Shown: positions 12,461 to 52,653 of the stretch, piece by piece
Position numbering within the stretch: the first letter of the stretch is position 1
Layout of the letters: the number at the start of each line of letters is the position of its first letter
Sequence record: MH383160
Source: Escherichia phage UB
Length of the DNA: 64,000 nt
Direction: 5' to 3' (one strand)
Made by a program: the position numbers and the translations under genes
The notes under the pieces: generated by a model
Database searches by the model: none
What the model was told of the DNA's origin: nothing
What the model saw: only the letters and a program-made list of their open reading frames with translations

Positions 12461-12546
12461 ATACACTCCTGCACCCTGTGGGCTAGTGAGCTATCTCTCA
12501 ATGAATATATAATAGCAAACTGGCTGACCGAAGTCAACCACTTTTT
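12461..12546 (-). repeat. About 85-bp intergenic repeat, copy 4 (hairpin variant GGCTGACCGAAGTCAACC)
   Basis: Direct comparison; the hairpin resembles the type found in the 44-59 kb region. Confidence 0.55.
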
Positions 12547-47227: not shown

Positions 47228-47422
47228 CTAATCCTCGCTGAAGACAACAATAAGGAATGACACGAACAATGCCGCATAACAAGGAGCTATCTTCATGTAC
47301 CACGGGACTTCATAATACCATGTACCCAATTCATCCCACGAAAAGAGTATACTCAAACCGAAGCCGATTAGCGATAGTACAATAAAAGAAATCCAGAAAC
47401 GCTTTGAATATACTAATAACAT
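47228..47422 (-). CDS. small membrane protein (64 aa)
   Basis: Two hydrophobic segments. Confidence 0.45.
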   Translation of the reverse strand: MLLVYSKRFWISFIVLSLIGFGLSILFSWDELGTWYYEVPWYMKIAPCYAALFVSFLIVVFSED

Positions 47423-47460
47423 GTTATGTTCCTTTGTGTAACCGAAGTCAACCCTTTCCT

Positions 47461-47976
47461 TTAATAATTATTCATTTCATCTTTGATTTGTTCTTCAATT
47501 TCGTCGAACATATCAGTACTAGATTCGTTCTTACTACTTACGTTCTGCATATCTTTAACGTACTGTGGACATTCAACATCAGTAAACTTATACCACGTAG
47601 GCTTCATCTGGAGCTTCTCAATCAAACGATCACGAGACATTTTAATCTCTGACTCCGTTGGTACGTAGTCATTACAAAACTCAGCAGGGAAGCCGCTAAT
47701 GTCGTTTACTTCAGTGTTTTGAATCTTCATACCACGACGCAGACATTCGTTGACAATATCAATATGACGCTTCTGTAAGTACAATAACTTGTTGTAGAAG
47801 AATGTTACATGACCTGAACCCAACAGGTAAGTACTGTTAATTTTGAAATCACGAACTCGCTTACGTGCTTGAACGTGTTTTTGTACAGCACCAAATACAC
47901 GTGGGAGTTCACGATATTCAGCCATCAGATGTTGGTCAGCAAGTTCTTTAACGTGTACTAAGTTAATGCGTGTCAT
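47461..47976 (-). CDS. denV: Endonuclease V (pyrimidine-dimer DNA glycosylase), T4 DenV homolog with a C-terminal extension (171 aa)
   Basis: N-terminal about 135 aa closely match recalled T4 DenV ([47 protein letters not shown]). Confidence 0.9.
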
Positions 47977-48011
47977 GTATTCATCCTCTCGTTTCGATGA
48001 AATGATTATAG

Positions 48012-48037
48012 CAAAAAGGGCTGACCGTAGTCAACCC
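48012..48037 (-). terminator. Hairpin terminator/promoter cassette
   Basis: GGGCTGACCGTAGTCAACCC; the stop codon of 48031..48444 lies within the hairpin. Confidence 0.5.
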
Positions 48038-48444
48038 TTTTTTCTTTCAATTAAACATAATCTACCAGCATGTACCATGCGATGGTGATTAGAACAAAGA
48101 ATTACACACTTTCGAATTTCATCTTTGATAGATTCTCGACTTTTACTGAACATAGAACTTGGTGTATGTTCTTTGGTATTAGGTTCAAGATGATGAAAGT
48201 CTAAACATTCTGGATACTTCATCATGCAAATACTACAACCATAAAATGATTTAACTCTGGTCATGAAATCTTTATTTTTTCTTTTGATTTCTTCAAGTTT
48301 TTTTACATCAGTTTTTTTATTTCTGGTTTTCTTACTGGTAATATTACTACAACATTTGCATGTATTTCTTTGTTTCCCAGTATCACTTCTTATACCAAAT
48401 TCACTAATGTCTTTTTCAATATTACACGTGATACACTTCTTCAT
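48031..48444 (-). CDS. HNH-family endonuclease (137 aa)
   Basis: N-terminal CITCN..C..CC zinc ribbon; DFHHLEP....N..ILCSNHHRMVH matches the HNH motif. Confidence 0.65.
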   Translation of the reverse strand: MKKCITCNIEKDISEFGIRSDTGKQRNTCKCCSNITSKKTRNKKTDVKKLEEIKRKNKDFMTRVKSFYGCSICMMKYPECLDFHHLEPNTKEHTPSSMFSKSRESIKDEIRKCVILCSNHHRMVHAGRLCLIERKKG

Positions 48445-48746
48445 GGTTTAACCCATTTATTCAACAATTCACCCAACTTCACAATCTCATACCCATCCAG
48501 ATAGCCATAGGAACACTCAGGTGTTTCATAAGTTGAACCATCATGGATACCTTGACATTGGCTTTTGGAACGTTCAAGCAATCGTTGCAGTACTGATACG
48601 TCATCAAGAACGTAATACAAGTTAGCATATGGGTCCGTCACAATACAGTACTTAAACATGCCAAATGTATCAATCGATTTTTCAACCTTAGCAAATTGTT
48701 TCTTTTCTTTATTATACAATGCGTACATATTAATCTCCATAATCAA
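48441..48746 (-). CDS. hypothetical protein (101 aa)
   Basis: ORF; overlapping stop/start with neighbours. Confidence 0.5.
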   Translation of the reverse strand: MIMEINMYALYNKEKKQFAKVEKSIDTFGMFKYCIVTDPYANLYYVLDDVSVLQRLLERSKSQCQGIHDGSTYETPECSYGYLDGYEIVKLGELLNKWVKP

Positions 48747-49101
48747 GTTTAACTAACTTACCATCCAGATACCCAAAGTTTTCTGGCTTCGCATCTGAAT
48801 AGAAGAAGTCAGTACTTAACTCTGAATTCAATGCTAAAGCACACAACTCCACCCAAAATAAACCCCTATGTTGCACTGGCTTACAACGTTTCTGTACAGT
48901 TACTAGTCCAGTACATGATGACCACAATGTAGGACAGATACTACTATCACTACGATTAGAGTACTGCATCCACGAACGTTCATTGAGGTTAGCTATCATT
49001 CCCGTTAAGAATAACTTCCAGCTTTTGAAGGTTGGAATCTTGATAGCGTATTCCCCAATGAGGATAACAGTTCGGGTTGCACCTTTCAAATCTATATTCA
49101 T
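48730..49101 (-). CDS. hypothetical protein (123 aa)
   Basis: ORF. Confidence 0.5.
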   Translation of the reverse strand: MNIDLKGATRTVILIGEYAIKIPTFKSWKLFLTGMIANLNERSWMQYSNRSDSSICPTLWSSCTGLVTVQKRCKPVQHRGLFWVELCALALNSELSTDFFYSDAKPENFGYLDGKLVKLDYGD

Positions 49102-49293
49102 AATATTAGTACGAATCAGATTCCCAGTACTCGATTGCTTCTTTCAGCAATTCTTTAGCACGTTGTTTTGCAATGCGAGCGGGTAACAGATATGTGTACA
49201 TTAACTGACGCTTCACTTCATTCAGTGAAAGCTGTTCATGGTACAGTGCATCCATCAGTCGATTACGAGTACGTAGTTTCATATAAGTTATCC

Positions 49294-49848
49294 TTATTTC
49301 AAAGAATCATAGTAAGCAGTGTCAAAGATTGGAGTCATAATAACATAGTCAATACGGTCAATGTAAGTTGAACTCCACATTTCTGGTTTGTCATATAACT
49401 GACGCTCGCGTTCATTCATACGAGTCAGTACTTCTTCCAATTTACTACGTGAATCCATCAATGTATTACTCGAACCATAAGTGAAGTACTCAGTCCAATG
49501 ATATTCATATTCAGTACTGATAGATTGAATAGTACCATCTTTGAAATGAGCTAAGGCATAACCTTTCTCTACAAAGTTATCAGGTGGAAGAACACCATCT
49601 GGATTAGTTTTCAATGCTTGTGCTAACTTTTCTTTAATTTCAGTTAACGTGCATACTGAACGAATGTTCTTCAGGTTTGATACTTGAAAATCACTGTACT
49701 TTCCAAAGAAAAAGACACGCCAATCTTTAGGTTCATTATCAGATACGGTAGCATCAGGGTGATGGGCGAGTAAACGAAGAAGGCCAGCTTTGTGACCGTT
49801 AATGTAGATTTCATGGATGTGGTTAGCAGTTTTCTTAAAAGTAATCAT
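49294..49848 (-). CDS. hypothetical protein (184 aa)
   Basis: ORF; hairpin GGGGATGAACTTCTCATCCC just upstream. Confidence 0.55.
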   Translation of the reverse strand: MITFKKTANHIHEIYINGHKAGLLRLLAHHPDATVSDNEPKDWRVFFFGKYSDFQVSNLKNIRSVCTLTEIKEKLAQALKTNPDGVLPPDNFVEKGYALAHFKDGTIQSISTEYEYHWTEYFTYGSSNTLMDSRSKLEEVLTRMNERERQLYDKPEMWSSTYIDRIDYVIMTPIFDTAYYDSLK

Positions 49849-49924
49849 GGTAGATCCTCGATTGTAGGGATGAGAAGTTCATCCCCTTGATAAGCATTAT
49901 ACAGTACTGAATGTGTTTGTCAAC

Positions 49925-50305
49925 TCAAAATAAATTCATTTCATGTGCGTATTGTGGTTCAAGATAAGATAAGTTTTTGAAACTGTCTTTCAATTCTGCA
50001 TCATCTACGTACACAGTACCAGGTACATTCCCCATAGTGAAGCCAACCCAAACAGTCATGTTTCCAGTTCCTAAGCGGGGCATTGATAGCGTCCCGTCAG
50101 GTGAAACATCAAACGCTACACTAAAGTCATCCGTTACAACTTCCGAACCATTTTCCAGAATAATACAACCACGTTCTTTAAGCTTCTGAATGTGGATAGC
50201 AGCCTCTACAGCACGTTTAAAGTTATAATAAGACTCTTTATCCTCGAACATTGATTGTTTAACCAGACGCTTGTTTAGCTCGGTTACTTTGTGCATTTGA
50301 CGCAT
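49925..50305 (-). CDS. hypothetical protein (about 126 aa)
   Basis: ORF; start assumed at MRQMHKV adjacent to the upstream stop. Confidence 0.5.
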   Translation of the reverse strand: MRQMHKVTELNKRLVKQSMFEDKESYYNFKRAVEAAIHIQKLKERGCIILENGSEVVTDDFSVAFDVSPDGTLSMPRLGTGNMTVWVGFTMGNVPGTVYVDDAELKDSFKNLSYLEPQYAHEMNLF

Positions 50306-50559
50306 TACTTCAACTCCCACAGTTGTAGAATTTCATAAGAGCCTGGTGGTGCTGGATTGATAATCTCAGGGTATTCAGTACTGTTAGGATTACCACCAGC
50401 ATTGAACTCAGCAAGTAATAATTCGAGTTCATTCCTATCATGAACAACAAACACGCAATATCCAGTTCCTTCTTCAAGAACTGTAGTTGATCCCGCACAA
50501 TCCCATACGGTATCAATACATAATAATTCTTTAGTGTTTTTATTACGCAACGCAAACAT
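50305..50559 (-). CDS. hypothetical protein (84 aa)
   Basis: ORF. Confidence 0.5.
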   Translation of the reverse strand: MFALRNKNTKELLCIDTVWDCAGSTTVLEEGTGYCVFVVHDRNELELLLAEFNAGGNPNSTEYPEIINPAPPGSYEILQLWELK

Positions 50560-50568
50560 ATATGTCTC

Positions 50569-50937
50569 CTATCGATTCGGCATATTCTTTCGTAGTCGCA
50601 AGAGAAATTCAACCACTGACCATGTTGTAATGAAGGCAATATAAGTTGCAAGGAATCCAGTAAGAATGAATGCAACCAGCGTACTACCATTTGGGGAATC
50701 AGTTTTAATGCCGATGACACCATCGGCTACAGTGAAACATGTAGCCATTAATGTGTAACCTACGTACAACACAAAGAAAAACTCATTCTCCATTGAAGGA
50801 TAGAAACGGTTAAACACTTTATAAAATTTAAAGTACAGTAGGATTATACCAACAAAGGCATAGAATGTAAACAGTGTTGTTATAATATATGAGATTAGGT
50901 TCAAATTATACATATCAACGCTCCGGTAGATTATCAC
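50569..50937 (-). CDS. small membrane protein (122 aa), same family as 40907..43687
   Basis: Hydrophobic segments plus C-terminal LRLRKNMPNR tail. Confidence 0.55.
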   Translation of the reverse strand: MIIYRSVDMYNLNLISYIITTLFTFYAFVGIILLYFKFYKVFNRFYPSMENEFFFVLYVGYTLMATCFTVADGVIGIKTDSPNGSTLVAFILTGFLATYIAFITTWSVVEFLLRLRKNMPNR

Positions 50938-51262
50938 GTAATGTTTTAATTCGATGATACATTTTCATACCAATATTACCAAAGATACCATATCCAAGTA
51001 CTAAAATGTATGCAATAAGCATAGTAATAATTACTATAGTGCCAAAACTATAATGTACACTACTGATACCCATTGTAGTTTCAACGATTATTTGAGAAAC
51101 TGAAAGAATCAAAAGTACAACTACAATTGGATGATTTGGGTACATTCGGTTGAACAACGTTTTGTACTTAAAGAAGCACAGTACTCCACCGAATAAGAAG
51201 TAAACAATGTAAATGCAAGCAACAGCATAGGCAAACATGTTAGTGTAATAAATCATTACCAA
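50915..51262 (-). CDS. small membrane protein (about 110 aa)
   Basis: Hydrophobic; C-terminal IKTLRDNLPER. Confidence 0.55.
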   Translation of the reverse strand: MVMIYYTNMFAYAVACIYIVYFLFGGVLCFFKYKTLFNRMYPNHPIVVVLLILSVSQIIVETTMGISSVHYSFGTIVIITMLIAYILVLGYGIFGNIGMKMYHRIKTLRDNLPER

Positions 51263-51265
51263 TCC

Positions 51266-51604
51266 TTACTTTTCAGGGATATTAGAACGCCATATATCAA
51301 TGCGATGAACTAGTCCAAAGAACAACCATACTGGAACGGCAGCTATCATAACAACAAATGAAAACCCAGTCAAGACCGATACCAGATTTAATTCATCAGT
51401 ACTATACCCACATATCAGTACTTCTAATATTCCCCACGTACATGCACAAAACATCAAGAATGAAATTGGGGCATCATAGTAGATACGTTCATATAAAGTA
51501 GTGTATCGGAAGAATGCAATAATGTAGCAAAACATATAATACACCCAAACCAAAGATACTACATAAAATGATACTTTGTTTATTAATTCAAAATATTGTT
51601 CCAT
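51266..51604 (-). CDS. small membrane protein (112 aa)
   Basis: Hydrophobic; C-terminal IDIWRSNIPEK. Confidence 0.55.
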   Translation of the reverse strand: MEQYFELINKVSFYVVSLVWVYYMFCYIIAFFRYTTLYERIYYDAPISFLMFCACTWGILEVLICGYSTDELNLVSVLTGFSFVVMIAAVPVWLFFGLVHRIDIWRSNIPEK

Positions 51605-51606
51605 TT

Positions 51607-51888
51607 TTACCCCAATATATATTCAGAGAGTAATGTATTAGCTTCATCTTTGTTCTTAAGGTAATACATGTAATATAGATTCGGTTCACCATCTTTAGCA
51701 CTCAAATCGAAGTACTTTAAACTATGTACTTTCATAGTAAAAACAAATAATGACTTAAAACCAATTTCACCGTACTTAATAAACAGTTCATCCAAATGAA
51801 TGTAACTTTTTGATTTGGATAATTCTTTAACGTCTGCATCAATTTCAGATAAAAGATGCTTACCTATTAAGTTTTCAAATGAACGCAT
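51607..51888 (-). CDS. hypothetical protein (93 aa)
   Basis: ORF. Confidence 0.5.
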   Translation of the reverse strand: MRSFENLIGKHLLSEIDADVKELSKSKSYIHLDELFIKYGEIGFKSLFVFTMKVHSLKYFDLSAKDGEPNLYYMYYLKNKDEANTLLSEYILG

Positions 51889-51949
51889 GATTTTATCCTT
51901 TACCGCAATTTTTATGGTTTATTAAGAATACACCAGAACATCAGTTCTG

Positions 51950-52591
51950 TCAATAAAAAACTGGATCTTCTTCAGTAATTGGTATTTCTCTACGCACATC
52001 ACACGAAAGAGGATCAGTAATGAATACATTCCCATCTTTATCCATCATCACATTACTTGAATGAATGTCTGGTACAAAACGCCCGTGAAACTCTTTCATG
52101 ATGTTAGCAGCGACCGTTGCAATAGCAATCTCTTCAGAATTTCCACGCATATCATTCACTGAAGTAGCGTACTGACCAGCATGTGCATAAGAATATAAAT
52201 CTCCAATTTTAGTACTAACAAAGTCATCATAATTATTTTTTTGTTTAATTATAGGATAGTACTTGTCCATCTCATACCATCCAAAGTTTCCTTGTTCGTT
52301 TGCACTGTAAATCACTGGAAGAAACTTGGTTCCTGCGTTTTCAATGCAGTACTTTGCATAAGCACGAAAACCATCCCAGCGTGAAGTGGTTACTTTAAAT
52401 GCACGTCCAGGATAGTTTTTATGTTCAACTACTACAGAGTACATCCCCATTCCAAGCAAAGTAAGTCCAGCAGCTTTAACTTGTGGAAAGATTACGCGTT
52501 CAGCATAAGGAATATCAAACTCCATCGCACAACGAGTTTTTGATGGACGCAAAATGTCAATTAAAGTTTTGAATATTTCTTGCTTAGTCAT
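51950..52591 (-). CDS. putative kinase-like protein (213 aa)
   Basis: Start at MTKQEIF; GMGMYSVV...AFKV resembles a nucleotide-binding loop plus Lys; DIHSSNVMMDKDGNVFITDP resembles a kinase catalytic loop. Confidence 0.45.
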   Translation of the reverse strand: MTKQEIFKTLIDILRPSKTRCAMEFDIPYAERVIFPQVKAAGLTLLGMGMYSVVVEHKNYPGRAFKVTTSRWDGFRAYAKYCIENAGTKFLPVIYSANEQGNFGWYEMDKYYPIIKQKNNYDDFVSTKIGDLYSYAHAGQYATSVNDMRGNSEEIAIATVAANIMKEFHGRFVPDIHSSNVMMDKDGNVFITDPLSCDVRREIPITEEDPVFY

Positions 52592-52625
52592 TACTTTATC
52601 CTCTGTAGTTAATATCAACATCATA

Positions 52626-52653
52626 ACAAAAAAGGCTGACCGAAGTCAACCCT
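52626..52653 (-). terminator. Hairpin terminator/promoter cassette
   Basis: AAAAAAGGCTGACCGAAGTCAACCC between 52661..53080 and 51950..52591. Confidence 0.55.

What the first reader, a model, noticed from the sequence alone, without database searches (positions are those of the whole stretch)
47461..47976. DenV homolog with about 35 extra C-terminal residues
The first roughly 135 aa match recalled T4 endonuclease V almost motif for motif; this copy continues with an acidic tail (..[38 protein letters not shown]). The added tail could mediate an interaction or be a fusion created by cassette shuffling. It also anchors the window to the denV neighbourhood of a T4-type genome.
Basis: partly seen in the sequence, partly recalled or inferred. 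Interest (0 to 1): 0.4.

Follow-up and report, generated by a model that had tools for sequence, protein, structure and literature searches.

The report
Jumbo-phage DenV with conserved acidic tail
This is a normal UV-damage repair enzyme (T4 endonuclease V type) of a 350-kb E. coli jumbo phage, not of a T4-type phage. It carries a real, conserved, negatively charged C-terminal helix on a flexible linker; the helix's job is unknown, and a docking or regulatory peptide is the likeliest role.

Summary
The ORF is real: 47461..47976 (-), 171 aa. Residues 1-131 match T4 endonuclease V (E 1e-53, 62% identity, every catalytic and DNA-contact residue kept, model rmsd 1.3 Å to 2END).

The window is not T4-type. 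It is 98-99% identical to Escherichia phage 121Q (Asteriusvirus, RaK2-like jumbo phage), where the gene is already annotated as endonuclease V.

The tail is not a sequencing error. Seventeen Asteriusvirus genomes carry it in the same frame. Three or four more distant jumbo-phage DenV lineages also end in the same motif, [FY]-[DE]-x-[IV]-E-x-Q-I-K-[DE]-E-M-N-N-Y, encoded with different synonymous codons.

The extension has three parts:
- a short extra helix shared by all RaK2-like DenVs (132-144);
- a variable, dispensable Ser/Asn linker (145-154), deleted in a 158-aa allele;
- a conserved 17-residue acidic amphipathic helix (155-171).

The tail moves the calculated pI from 9.5 to 6.5. It is found on no other protein. 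About 12 sibling phages, PBECO4 among them, lack it.

The locus lies in a mosaic early region with promoter/terminator hairpin repeats. Function is inferred only: most likely a tethered binding helix, with cis electrostatic autoinhibition as the main rival. Modest interest.

The parts
47461..47976 (-). denV gene: T4 endonuclease V-type pyrimidine dimer DNA glycosylase/AP lyase, 171 aa plus stop
   Evidence: 99.4% identical to 121Q gp217 and to SP27
47584..47976 (-). catalytic core, residues 1-131, collinear with T4 endonuclease V 1-131
   Evidence: E 1e-53, no gaps. T2, R3, H16, R22, E23, R26, R117, K121, W128, Y129, K130 invariant. AF2 pLDDT above 90 and rmsd 1.3 Å, TM 0.94 to 2END; pN/pS 0.11.
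47545..47583 (-). residues 132-144 ([13 protein letters not shown]): extension common to all RaK2-like jumbo-phage DenVs. It is a 7-residue insertion followed by the equivalent of T4's C-terminus.
   Evidence: alignments. Predicted helix from residue 138, with pLDDT 91-96 in the P0010 model and 86 in the window model.
47515..47544 (-). residues 145-154 ([10 protein letters not shown]): variable Ser/Asn/Thr-rich linker
   Evidence: pN/pS 0.83. Length varies from 0 to about 20 residues between lineages. Residues 144-156 are deleted in the 158-aa alleles P0003/P0004, between two GATATG repeats. pLDDT below 50 in the P0010 model.
47464..47514 (-). residues 155-171 ([17 protein letters not shown]): conserved acidic amphipathic C-terminal helix, the core of the finding
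   Evidence: Conserved in P0001-4, P0008, P0010/XbC2 and, out of frame, in P0011. Ile164 is encoded by ATC, ATT or ATA in different lineages. Hydrophobic moment exceeded by 1 of 2000 shuffles. Predicted helical.
48005..48037 (-). PeSL-like composite element upstream of denV: terminator-type hairpin (GGGTTGACTACGGTCAGCCC followed by a T run) overlapping a sigma-70 promoter TTGACT-18-TATAAT
   Evidence: 5 copies in the window, 0 expected; 11 of 12 promoter match, with TG; -20.4 kcal/mol, z -5.4
47441..47454 (-). left half only of the same element, directly after the denV stop codon; a recombination junction with no hairpin
   Evidence: (-1.7 kcal/mol, z +0.6). In BF17, fEgEco12 and ph0011 the full element sits here, followed by different genes.
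47228..47422 (-). 64-aa hydrophobic small ORF (121Q gp218) downstream of denV. Absent from PBECO4 and from several tail-bearing phages, so it is not linked to the tail.
   Evidence: no Pfam or PHROG family

Best explanation
Shown: the gene encodes a bona fide T4 endonuclease V-type CPD glycosylase/AP lyase of a 121Q-like Asteriusvirus jumbo phage. It is driven by an early sigma-70-type promoter embedded in a hairpin repeat. Its C-terminus is a three-part appendage: a short helix shared by all RaK2-like DenVs, a variable and dispensable Ser/Asn linker, and a 17-residue acidic amphipathic helix. That helix (D-x-[FYL]-[DE]-x-[IV]-E-x-Q-I-K-[DE]-E-M-[NQ]-x-[YE]) is translated and kept by purifying selection in several jumbo-phage lineages.

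Inferred: catalysis works as in T4, with the Thr2 alpha-amino nucleophile, Glu23 and the basic DNA-binding face. The tail is a tethered binding helix. A narrow hydrophobic stripe (F157, I160, I164, M168, Y171) with fixed polar residues (Q163, K165, N169) docks in trans onto a still unidentified phage or host protein. This couples or regulates the repair enzyme. As a by-product it cancels the +7 charge on which T4 endonuclease V depends for salt-sensitive sliding on undamaged DNA.

The tail is accessory: about 12 sibling phages carry a tail-less allele, exchanged by recombination in this mosaic region.

Confidence split: identity and enzymology about 0.9; the tail as a selected, functional module about 0.8; trans-docking specifically about 0.35.
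For: Identity:
- (sequence, family and fold matches; catalytic residues invariant).
- The phage is Asteriusvirus.

The tail is real and selected:
- Same ORF in 17 phages.
- Motif shared with Xanthomonas phage XbC2 and with metagenomic P0008 and P0010, whose cores are only 62-76% identical.
- A fourth lineage, P0011, has the motif in the +1 frame after a linker frameshift.
- Amino acids are conserved while codons differ: Ile ATC/ATT/ATA, Glu GAA/GAG, Asp GAT/GAC, Tyr TAT/TAC.

Linker dispensable, helix kept:
- The 158-aa alleles are found on independent contigs.
- Linker pN/pS is 0.83 against 0.11 for the core.

Sequence-specific, amphipathic and acidic:
-.

Not predicted to pack on the core:
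- The P0010 model gives a confident core plus helix 138-155, a disordered stretch 155-166 (pLDDT below 50), then a separate low-confidence helix 164-177.
- The window model gives one protruding helix 138-169 with pLDDT 66-79.

Early expression context:
-.
- In the RaK2-like phage CBB, endonuclease V lies in the presumed early region with RpoD-like promoters (PMC5259590).
Against: - No partner is identified.
- No other protein carries a similar C-terminus, so there is no 'shared docking motif' signature. This covers 838 ORFs, including the phage SSB, UvsX, UvsY, polymerase subunits, primase, helicase and clamp loader.
- About 190 kb of the 121Q genome was not scanned.
- Only pLDDT and secondary structure were available from the models, not coordinates or PAE, so cis-docking is not excluded.
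- The near-exact charge match of tail (-8) and core (+7) fits a cis mechanism equally well.
- About 12 related phages do without the tail, so any function is non-essential.
- Within Asteriusvirus the last 17 codons show no synonymous differences. The sample is small (about 6 synonymous sites per sequence). The pattern could reflect recent gene conversion next to the hairpin repeat rather than selection; the between-lineage comparison is what supports selection on the protein.
Confidence: 0.5

Rival explanations
1. Cis-acting autoinhibitory or DNA-mimic tail. The acidic helix folds back on the basic DNA-binding groove of its own core and competes with undamaged DNA. This tunes processivity and specificity, in the way the acidic C-terminal tails of T4 gp32, T7 gp2.5, E. 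coli SSB or HMGB1 act (comparison from general knowledge).
For: - The tail charge of -8 almost exactly cancels the core charge of +7, and pI falls from 9.5 to 6.5. The same holds for XbC2, at -10 against +5.
- The tail starts next to the WYKF segment, which in T4 endonuclease V belongs to the DNA-binding face (established knowledge).
- The DNA-binding residues of the core are invariant, which would explain why a tail binding them is also conserved.
- No trans partner or shared motif was found.
Against: - Conservation is residue-specific (Q163, I164, K165, M168, N169 are fixed) rather than compositional.
- AlphaFold does not pack the helix on the core: a disordered linker plus a low-confidence free helix in P0010, and a protruding helix in the window protein. 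Only about 7 tail-bearing sequences informed these models.
- Linker length ranges from 0 to about 20 residues, which is unusual for a fixed intramolecular docking geometry.
Confidence: 0.25
2. The tail is a homo-oligomerisation helix (short coiled coil) that makes the jumbo-phage enzyme dimeric.
For: A long predicted helix 138-169, and a hydrophobic stripe with 3-4-4-3 spacing and a strong hydrophobic moment.
Against: - Only 17 conserved residues, too short for a stable coiled coil.
- The upstream segment is a polar, variable linker predicted to be disordered in P0010.
- The helix carries net charge of about -6 with few possible i/i+4 salt bridges between chains.
- T4 endonuclease V works as a monomer (general knowledge).
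Confidence: 0.08
3. The tail is functionless baggage that hitch-hikes at a recombination hot spot. It is either a read-through into former intergenic sequence or a fragment captured from another gene by cassette shuffling.
For: - Patchy presence and absence among close relatives.
- The locus is flanked by recombinogenic hairpin/promoter repeats.
- Other accidents occur at this 3' end: an in-frame DenV-gp219 fusion in Salmonella phage SD-2_S15 and a frameshift in P0011.
Against: - The motif persists across lineages whose cores are only 62-76% identical, with synonymous codon changes and conservative replacements only.
- An allele that deleted the linker kept the helix intact and in frame.
- No donor gene was found anywhere.
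Confidence: 0.1
4. Artefact: the stop codon is displaced by a sequencing or assembly error, and the true protein is about 138-144 aa.
For: None found. Short alleles of 144-149 aa do exist in related phages.
Against: - Seventeen independently sequenced genomes have the same frame and stop.
- The short alleles differ in sequence from codon ~135 on, not by a single indel or point mutation.
Confidence: 0.01

Closest known systems
Bacteriophage T4 endonuclease V (DenV, T4-PDG; PDB 2END, 1VAS; Pfam PF03013 Pyr_excise)
   Same: Residues 1-131 are collinear and 62% identical. The N-terminal Thr2, Glu23, Arg3/22/26/117, Lys121 and the W128-Y129-K130 segment are conserved. The predicted fold superposes at 1.3 Å.
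   Different: - T4's protein ends at residue 138 and has no acidic tail; the whole-protein calculated pI is 9.4 against 6.5 here.
- The genomic setting differs: T4-likes have e, nudE and internal-protein genes next to denV. Here denV sits in a jumbo-phage early region with HNH and unknown small ORFs.
DenV of Escherichia phage 121Q (gp217, YP_009101804) and 16 other Asteriusvirus genomes
   Same: Same 171-aa protein at 90-99% identity, including the tail; already annotated 'endonuclease V N-glycosylase UV repair enzyme'.
   Different: One residue differs from 121Q (N62D). The window also has an HNH endonuclease gene inserted directly upstream that 121Q lacks. No paper in the held library pairs 'DenV' with the RaK2/121Q/PBECO4 phage names, or 'pyrimidine dimer glycosylase' with 'C-terminal extension'.
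Short-form DenV of PBECO4 (144 aa), RaK2 (147 aa), CBB and GAP32 (RaK2-like jumbo phages)
   Same: Same clade and the same 132-144 extension relative to T4 (..TDVExPxYYxxM); 66-92% identical cores.
   Different: They stop at the point where the linker begins, so they have no linker and no acidic helix. In PBECO4 the sequence diverges from the window from codon ~135 and lacks about 360 bp, which includes gp218.
Acidic C-terminal tails of phage and bacterial ssDNA-binding proteins (T4 gp32, T7 gp2.5, E. coli SSB-Ct); analogy from general knowledge, not tested
   Same: A basic DNA-binding core, a flexible low-complexity linker, and a short conserved acidic C-terminal peptide ending in an aromatic residue. 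Such tails both compete with DNA in cis and recruit partner proteins in trans.
   Different: Unrelated folds (OB fold against all-alpha glycosylase) and unrelated peptide sequences (DDDIPF and similar). Here the peptide is predicted to be an amphipathic helix. No partner is known.
PeSL (promoter-early stem-loop) cassettes of T4-like phages (Arbiol 2010, PMC2839356; Comeau 2014, PMC4122927)
   Same: Repeated composite terminator-hairpin plus sigma-70 promoter elements flank small early genes in hyperplastic regions and coincide with indel and replacement boundaries.
   Different: Described for Straboviridae, not for RaK2-like jumbo phages. Here the -35 hexamer lies inside the stem. Whether recombination occurs at these elements is inferred from junctions, not shown.

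Membership tests
T4 endonuclease V / pyrimidine dimer DNA glycosylase (Pfam PF03013, PHROG 1183) | Significant match to the family profile above the curated threshold | tested here: met
   PF03013 at 56.4 bits against a cutoff of 23; PHROG 1183 E 1.3e-58 over profile positions 1-137 of 139; 2END E 1.3e-53
T4 endonuclease V / pyrimidine dimer DNA glycosylase (Pfam PF03013, PHROG 1183) | N-terminal Met-Thr-Arg, so that after Met removal the Thr2 alpha-amino group is the Schiff-base nucleophile | tested here: met
   The sequence starts MTRINL; M1, T2 and R3 are invariant in 65 homologues. Removal of Met and the chemistry itself cannot be tested here.
T4 endonuclease V / pyrimidine dimer DNA glycosylase (Pfam PF03013, PHROG 1183) | Catalytic Glu23 and the basic DNA-contact residues Arg22, Arg26, Arg117, Lys121 | tested here: met
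   All are present and invariant in the alignments
T4 endonuclease V / pyrimidine dimer DNA glycosylase (Pfam PF03013, PHROG 1183) | Aromatic C-terminal segment W128-Y129-K130-Y131 needed for dimer-specific binding | tested here: met
   W128-Y129-K130 are conserved; residue 131 is Phe instead of Tyr
T4 endonuclease V / pyrimidine dimer DNA glycosylase (Pfam PF03013, PHROG 1183) | Compact all-alpha fold of 2END | tested here: met
   AF2 model with mean pLDDT 90; Foldseek to 2END gives rmsd 1.3 Å over 133 columns, target TM 0.94
T4 endonuclease V / pyrimidine dimer DNA glycosylase (Pfam PF03013, PHROG 1183) | CPD-specific glycosylase plus AP-lyase activity | not testable with these tools
   Needs an enzyme assay on UV-irradiated DNA
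T4-type (Straboviridae) genome, denV neighbourhood | denV flanked by e (lysozyme), nudE, internal head protein genes and vs genes, in a genome of about 170 kb | tested here: not met
   The window region is 95% covered at 97.7% identity by the 348.5-kb Asteriusvirus 121Q. The neighbours are HNH, unknown ORFs and a CapR-domain endonuclease. The T4-like neighbourhood is shown for comparison.
SSB-type acidic C-terminal docking tails (functional analogy only) | The same terminal peptide is recognised by partner proteins, or the peptide is shared by several proteins of the same system | tested here: not met
   An HMM of the 17-aa motif found only DenV among 838 ORF C-termini. The 'EMNLF' end of gp211 is not conserved in its RaK2 homologues. 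No hit in 1.84 billion representatives apart from a spurious one. Partner binding itself cannot be tested here.
PeSL regulatory cassettes | Repeated stable hairpin followed by a T run, overlapping a sigma-70-like -35/-10 pair, located at gene-cassette boundaries | tested here: met
   5 full and 3 partial copies, all on the coding strand, against 0 expected. Hairpins of -18.6 and -20.4 kcal/mol with z about -5.5. TTGACT-18-TATAAT matches 11 of 12 positions. The gene downstream of the element differs between phages.

The most novel reading that the evidence does not exclude
The conserved C-terminal helix is a recruitment peptide that tethers the CPD glycosylase to a specific phage or host protein, for example a replisome, recombination or transcription component. 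If so, some jumbo phages run a coupled, targeted form of UV base-excision repair, unlike the free-scanning T4 enzyme. The long and short alleles would then be a natural on/off polymorphism of that coupling.
Probability: 0.3. Interest if true: 0.5.

Novelty: new variant of a known kind. Interest (0 to 1): 0.3.

Why it matters
T4 endonuclease V is the textbook minimal DNA glycosylase. It is a single small basic domain that finds UV dimers by electrostatic sliding, and it has been developed for skin-repair applications.

A natural variant that adds a conserved acidic helix on a flexible tether, neutralising the protein's charge, would be a ready-made experiment. It would show how lesion search or recruitment can be regulated in this family. 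Matched tail-less alleles exist in sibling phages to serve as controls.

The gene itself is already annotated in many genomes, the tail is accessory, and nothing here overturns current understanding. The value is modest and mostly that of a well-defined hypothesis. A secondary point is that the window shows PeSL-like promoter/terminator hairpin cassettes, described for T4-like phages, operating in a RaK2-like jumbo phage.

Tried and rejected
1. Shared docking motif.
- ORF 49925..50305 (121Q gp211) ends ..HEMNLF, resembling ..DEMNNY. Its RaK2, Salmonella and Klebsiella homologues align only to residues ~117-118, so the ending is not conserved. The gene is also present in tail-less phages. Treated as chance.
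- An HMM of the motif against 838 ORF C-termini (window plus 121Q 1-100 kb) hit only DenV.
- The remaining ~190 kb of 121Q was not scanned.

2. The tail as a module on other proteins.
- Tail-only tblastn found 18 Escherichia phage records plus XbC2, one place each.
- The tail profile against 1.84 billion representatives gave one hit (P0121, E 6e-4). It is an Arg/Ala/Ser/Pro-rich 3381-aa sequence with no real resemblance.
- Back-translated pattern scans of IMG/VR and JGI metagenomes gave 94 matches. Only two lie on DenV ORFs (121Q and the P0008 contig). Nine others sit within 8 codons of a stop: eight in reading frames of 13-55 aa, and one (L085) near the end of an unrelated 131-aa ORF. None lies on a DenV-like ORF. 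The remaining matches are more than 8 residues from a stop; the five of these examined are internal matches in unrelated ORFs.

3. T4/RB69-type sliding-clamp peptide.
- 'DMFD' recalled the RB69 polymerase C-terminus (from memory). Position 156 varies (M/E/P/Q) and 157 is F/L/Y.
- The CBB paper reports no gp45 homologue in that RaK2-like phage.
- Unsupported, but not formally excluded for 121Q.

4. The Pfam DUF6376 hit over residues 104-167 (E 0.006, 17 bits against a cutoff of 27) is below threshold and was ignored.

5. DNA-level function of the tail codons.
- There are no synonymous differences in the last 17 codons among 7 Asteriusvirus genes.
- Between lineages synonymous changes are present.
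- The region is adjacent to the conserved hairpin arm, so gene conversion is the simpler reading.

6. Linkage of the tail with the downstream membrane ORF gp218 was rejected. BF17, fEgEco12, ph0011 and the P0003 contig have the tail with other downstream genes.

The search was rerun without them.

Full report
**1. Observation**

The ORF is exactly as described: 47461..47976 on the minus strand, ATG start, 171 codons, ending ..[38 protein letters not shown].
- Residues 1-131 align without a gap to residues 1-131 of T4 endonuclease V (2END, E 1.3e-53, about 62% identity).
- Pfam PF03013 (Pyr_excise) scores 56 bits against a cutoff of 23.
- PHROG 1183 'endonuclease V N-glycosylase UV repair enzyme' matches residues 1-133 (E 1e-58).
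- The N-terminal Thr2, together with Arg3, His16, Arg22, Glu23, Arg26, Arg117, Lys121 and Trp128-Tyr129-Lys130, is invariant against T4 and the jumbo-phage homologues.
- An AlphaFold model (mean pLDDT 90) superposes on 2END at 1.3 Å, target TM 0.94.

The gene is a DenV. Plus-strand ORFs overlapping it are mechanical only.

**2. Where the window comes from**

- The protein is 99.4% identical to gp217 of Escherichia phage 121Q and to its counterpart in SP27. It is 90-99% identical to proteins in 15 further Asteriusvirus genomes of about 350-380 kb.
- Region 44000-52000 is 95% covered at 97.7% identity by 121Q.
- The neighbours are an HNH endonuclease, small ORFs without family assignment, and a 487-aa CapR-domain endonuclease.
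- In a T4-like genome, denV sits among e, nudE, internal head protein genes and vs genes.
- In the RaK2-like phage CBB, endonuclease V lies in the presumed early region, which is rich in RpoD-like promoters and short unknown ORFs (PMC5259590).

**3. Anatomy of the extension**

Alignment with T4, PBECO4 (144 aa), RaK2 (147 aa), XbC2 (179 aa) and metagenomic homologues divides the 40 residues after F131 into three parts.
- (a) Residues 132-144, [13 protein letters not shown]. This is a 7-residue insertion followed by the counterpart of T4's own C-terminus. It is shared by all RaK2-like jumbo-phage DenVs, and the short alleles end here. It is predicted to be a confident helix starting at residue 138 (pLDDT 91-96 in the P0010 model).
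- (b) Residues 145-154, [10 protein letters not shown]. This linker varies in sequence and length.
  - Length runs from 0 to about 20 residues between lineages.
  - pN/pS is 0.83, against 0.11 for the core.
  - pLDDT is below 50 in the P0010 model.
- (c) Residues 155-171, [17 protein letters not shown], the conserved unit.

The genuinely added tail is about 27 residues.

**4. Is the tail real, and is it selected?**

- Seventeen Asteriusvirus genomes carry the same frame and stop.
- The short alleles are not one-base variants of the long one. PBECO4 diverges from codon ~135 and lacks about 360 bp. This excludes a misplaced stop.
- The terminal motif recurs in more distant lineages (core identities to the window as printed):
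  - Xanthomonas phage XbC2 and P0010 (..DEYE[DN][VI]ERQIKEEMNNY; core 72% identical);
  - P0008 (..PYEDIEQQIKDEMNLE; core 76% identical);
  - the P0011 contig, where ..QYDEIEQQIKDEMQEY* lies in the +1 frame after a frameshift in the linker.
- Codons differ while amino acids are kept: Ile164 is ATC, ATT or ATA, and there are Glu GAA/GAG, Asp GAT/GAC and Tyr TAT/TAC alternatives.
- Two 158-aa alleles (P0003, P0004), on independent contigs of up to 357 kb, have lost exactly residues 144-156 between two GATATG repeats. They keep the helix in frame.

The helix is therefore the selected unit and the linker is dispensable.

Within Asteriusvirus the last 17 codons show no synonymous change at all. The sample is small. 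Because the segment abuts a conserved hairpin arm, gene conversion is the simplest reading.

**5. Distribution**

A neighbour-joining tree of the core puts all tail-bearing proteins inside the RaK2-like jumbo-phage clade. They fall in three or four subclades, each with tail-less sisters. No T4-like DenV has the tail. About 12 E. coli Asteriusvirus phages (PBECO4, slurp01, phAPEC6 and others) carry short alleles. The tail is thus either ancestral with repeated loss, or exchanged by recombination of 3' ends. Either way it is accessory.

The tail was found on no other protein:
- The tail-only tblastn found one place per record.
- The motif HMM against 838 ORF C-termini, including the phage SSB, UvsX, UvsY, polymerase subunits, primase, helicase and clamp loader, hit only DenV.
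- The tail profile against 1.84 billion representatives gave one spurious hit.
- Back-translated pattern scans of IMG/VR and JGI metagenomes gave 94 matches, of which only 121Q and the P0008 contig lie on DenV ORFs.

There is therefore no evidence that the tail was captured from another gene.

**6. Local genome architecture**

denV is preceded by a composite element at 48005..48037.
- It has a -20.4 kcal/mol hairpin (z -5.4) followed by a T run.
- It overlaps TTGACT-18-TATAAT, with TG before the -10 hexamer.
- The window holds five full and three partial copies, all on the coding strand, against none expected.
- This matches the PeSL concept described for T4-like phages (PMC4122927; PMC2839356).

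Directly after the denV stop codon only the left arm remains (47441..47454; no hairpin). It is fused to the 64-aa membrane ORF gp218. In BF17, fEgEco12, ph0011 and the P0003 contig the full element follows the same stop, and different genes come next. The tail therefore travels with denV, while the downstream cassette is shuffled at the hairpin. Coverage of this 8-kb region by other Asteriusvirus genomes is only 46-69%, at about 90-98% identity, which confirms a mosaic region.

**7. How it most likely works**

Catalysis should be that of T4 endonuclease V. This is inferred from complete conservation of the active-site and DNA-contact residues.

For the tail the facts are:
- net charge -8 (residues 132-171) against +7 for the core, with pI falling from 9.5 to 6.5;
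- a narrow hydrophobic stripe (F157, I160, I164, M168, Y171), with a hydrophobic moment exceeded by 1 of 2000 shuffles;
- residue-specific conservation of Q163, I164, K165, E167, M168 and N169;
- a tolerant linker;
- AlphaFold models that leave the helix free, with a disordered linker and a low-confidence helix in P0010 and a protruding helix in the window protein.

I read this as a tethered binding helix. Docking in trans to an unidentified phage or host protein is the most likely mode (about 0.35). Cis autoinhibition of the basic DNA-binding face is the main rival (about 0.25), and the two are not mutually exclusive, as with SSB-type tails. Dimerisation (about 0.08) and functionless baggage (about 0.1) follow. 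Coordinates and PAE were not available, so cis contacts could not be checked directly.

**8. Comparison, novelty and verdict**

The protein is a member of the T4 endonuclease V family; all testable defining features are met. The gene is already annotated as such in GenBank. Searches of the held literature for 'DenV' together with the RaK2/121Q/PBECO4 phage names, and for 'pyrimidine dimer glycosylase' with 'C-terminal extension', found no paper on these DenVs or on such an extension. The CBB paper merely lists endonuclease V among the repair genes.

It is best filed as a new variant of a known kind: a canonical glycosylase with a lineage-restricted, conserved acidic C-terminal helix.

Interest is modest (0.3). 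The function is unknown, the tail is accessory, and nothing here is surprising in principle.

Noticed in passing
window 48031..48444 (-): A 137-aa HNH endonuclease gene lies directly upstream of denV (PHROG 2255, E 2e-31; 96% identical to fEgEco12 g570). It is absent at this position in 121Q, the otherwise closest genome, and looks like a free-standing homing-type insertion that brought or used its own hairpin/promoter repeat.
   Followed up: partly
window 44552..44584, 46723..46755, 48005..48037, 52620..52652, 59388..59420 (-), plus partial copies at 12527, 47441 and 53724: A PeSL-like repeat, GGGTTGACTTCGGTCAGCCCTTTTTGCTATAAT, combines a stable terminator hairpin with a near-consensus sigma-70 promoter whose -35 hexamer lies inside the stem. 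It marks cassette boundaries in this jumbo-phage early region. The same hairpin follows denV on the unrelated metagenomic contig L012. PeSLs have been described for T4-like phages, not, as far as I found, for RaK2-like phages.
   Followed up: partly
window 47228..47422 (-): A 64-aa strongly hydrophobic ORF (121Q gp218) with no Pfam or PHROG family. It is joined to denV through a half hairpin, so the two are probably co-transcribed. It is present in only some Asteriusvirus genomes.
   Followed up: partly
L016:514-1100 (ENA ERZ27235606 contig, protein P0011): This DenV ORF ends at 164 aa, but the conserved tail (..GEPDQYDEIEQQIKDEMQEY*) continues in the +1 frame. This is either a real frameshift inactivating the tail or an assembly error. 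It reveals a further lineage with the tail.
   Followed up: partly
P0005 (Salmonella phage SD-2_S15, OR699181.1), 242 aa: DenV residues 1 to about 136 are fused in frame to the homologue of the downstream 119-aa protein (window 46762..47121). This is a deletion-generated fusion or an assembly artefact at the same recombination-prone 3' end.
   Followed up: no
window 44950..46413 (-): A 487-aa protein with a CapR homology domain (PF21817, E 2e-23; PHROG 681 'endonuclease'). Its length varies between 121Q (487 aa) and PBECO4 (379 aa).
   Followed up: no
window 49925..50305 (-): The 126-aa ORF (121Q gp211) ends ..QYAHEMNLF, superficially like the DenV ending ..KDEMNNY. The ending is not conserved in RaK2, Klebsiella or Salmonella homologues, so the likeness is probably coincidence.
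   Followed up: yes
window 47464..47514 (-) and the same codons in L001, L006-L010: There are no synonymous differences in the last 17 codons of denV among seven Asteriusvirus genomes, although the core has pS 0.16. Possible explanations are homogenisation by gene conversion next to the hairpin repeat, or simply too few synonymous sites.
   Followed up: partly
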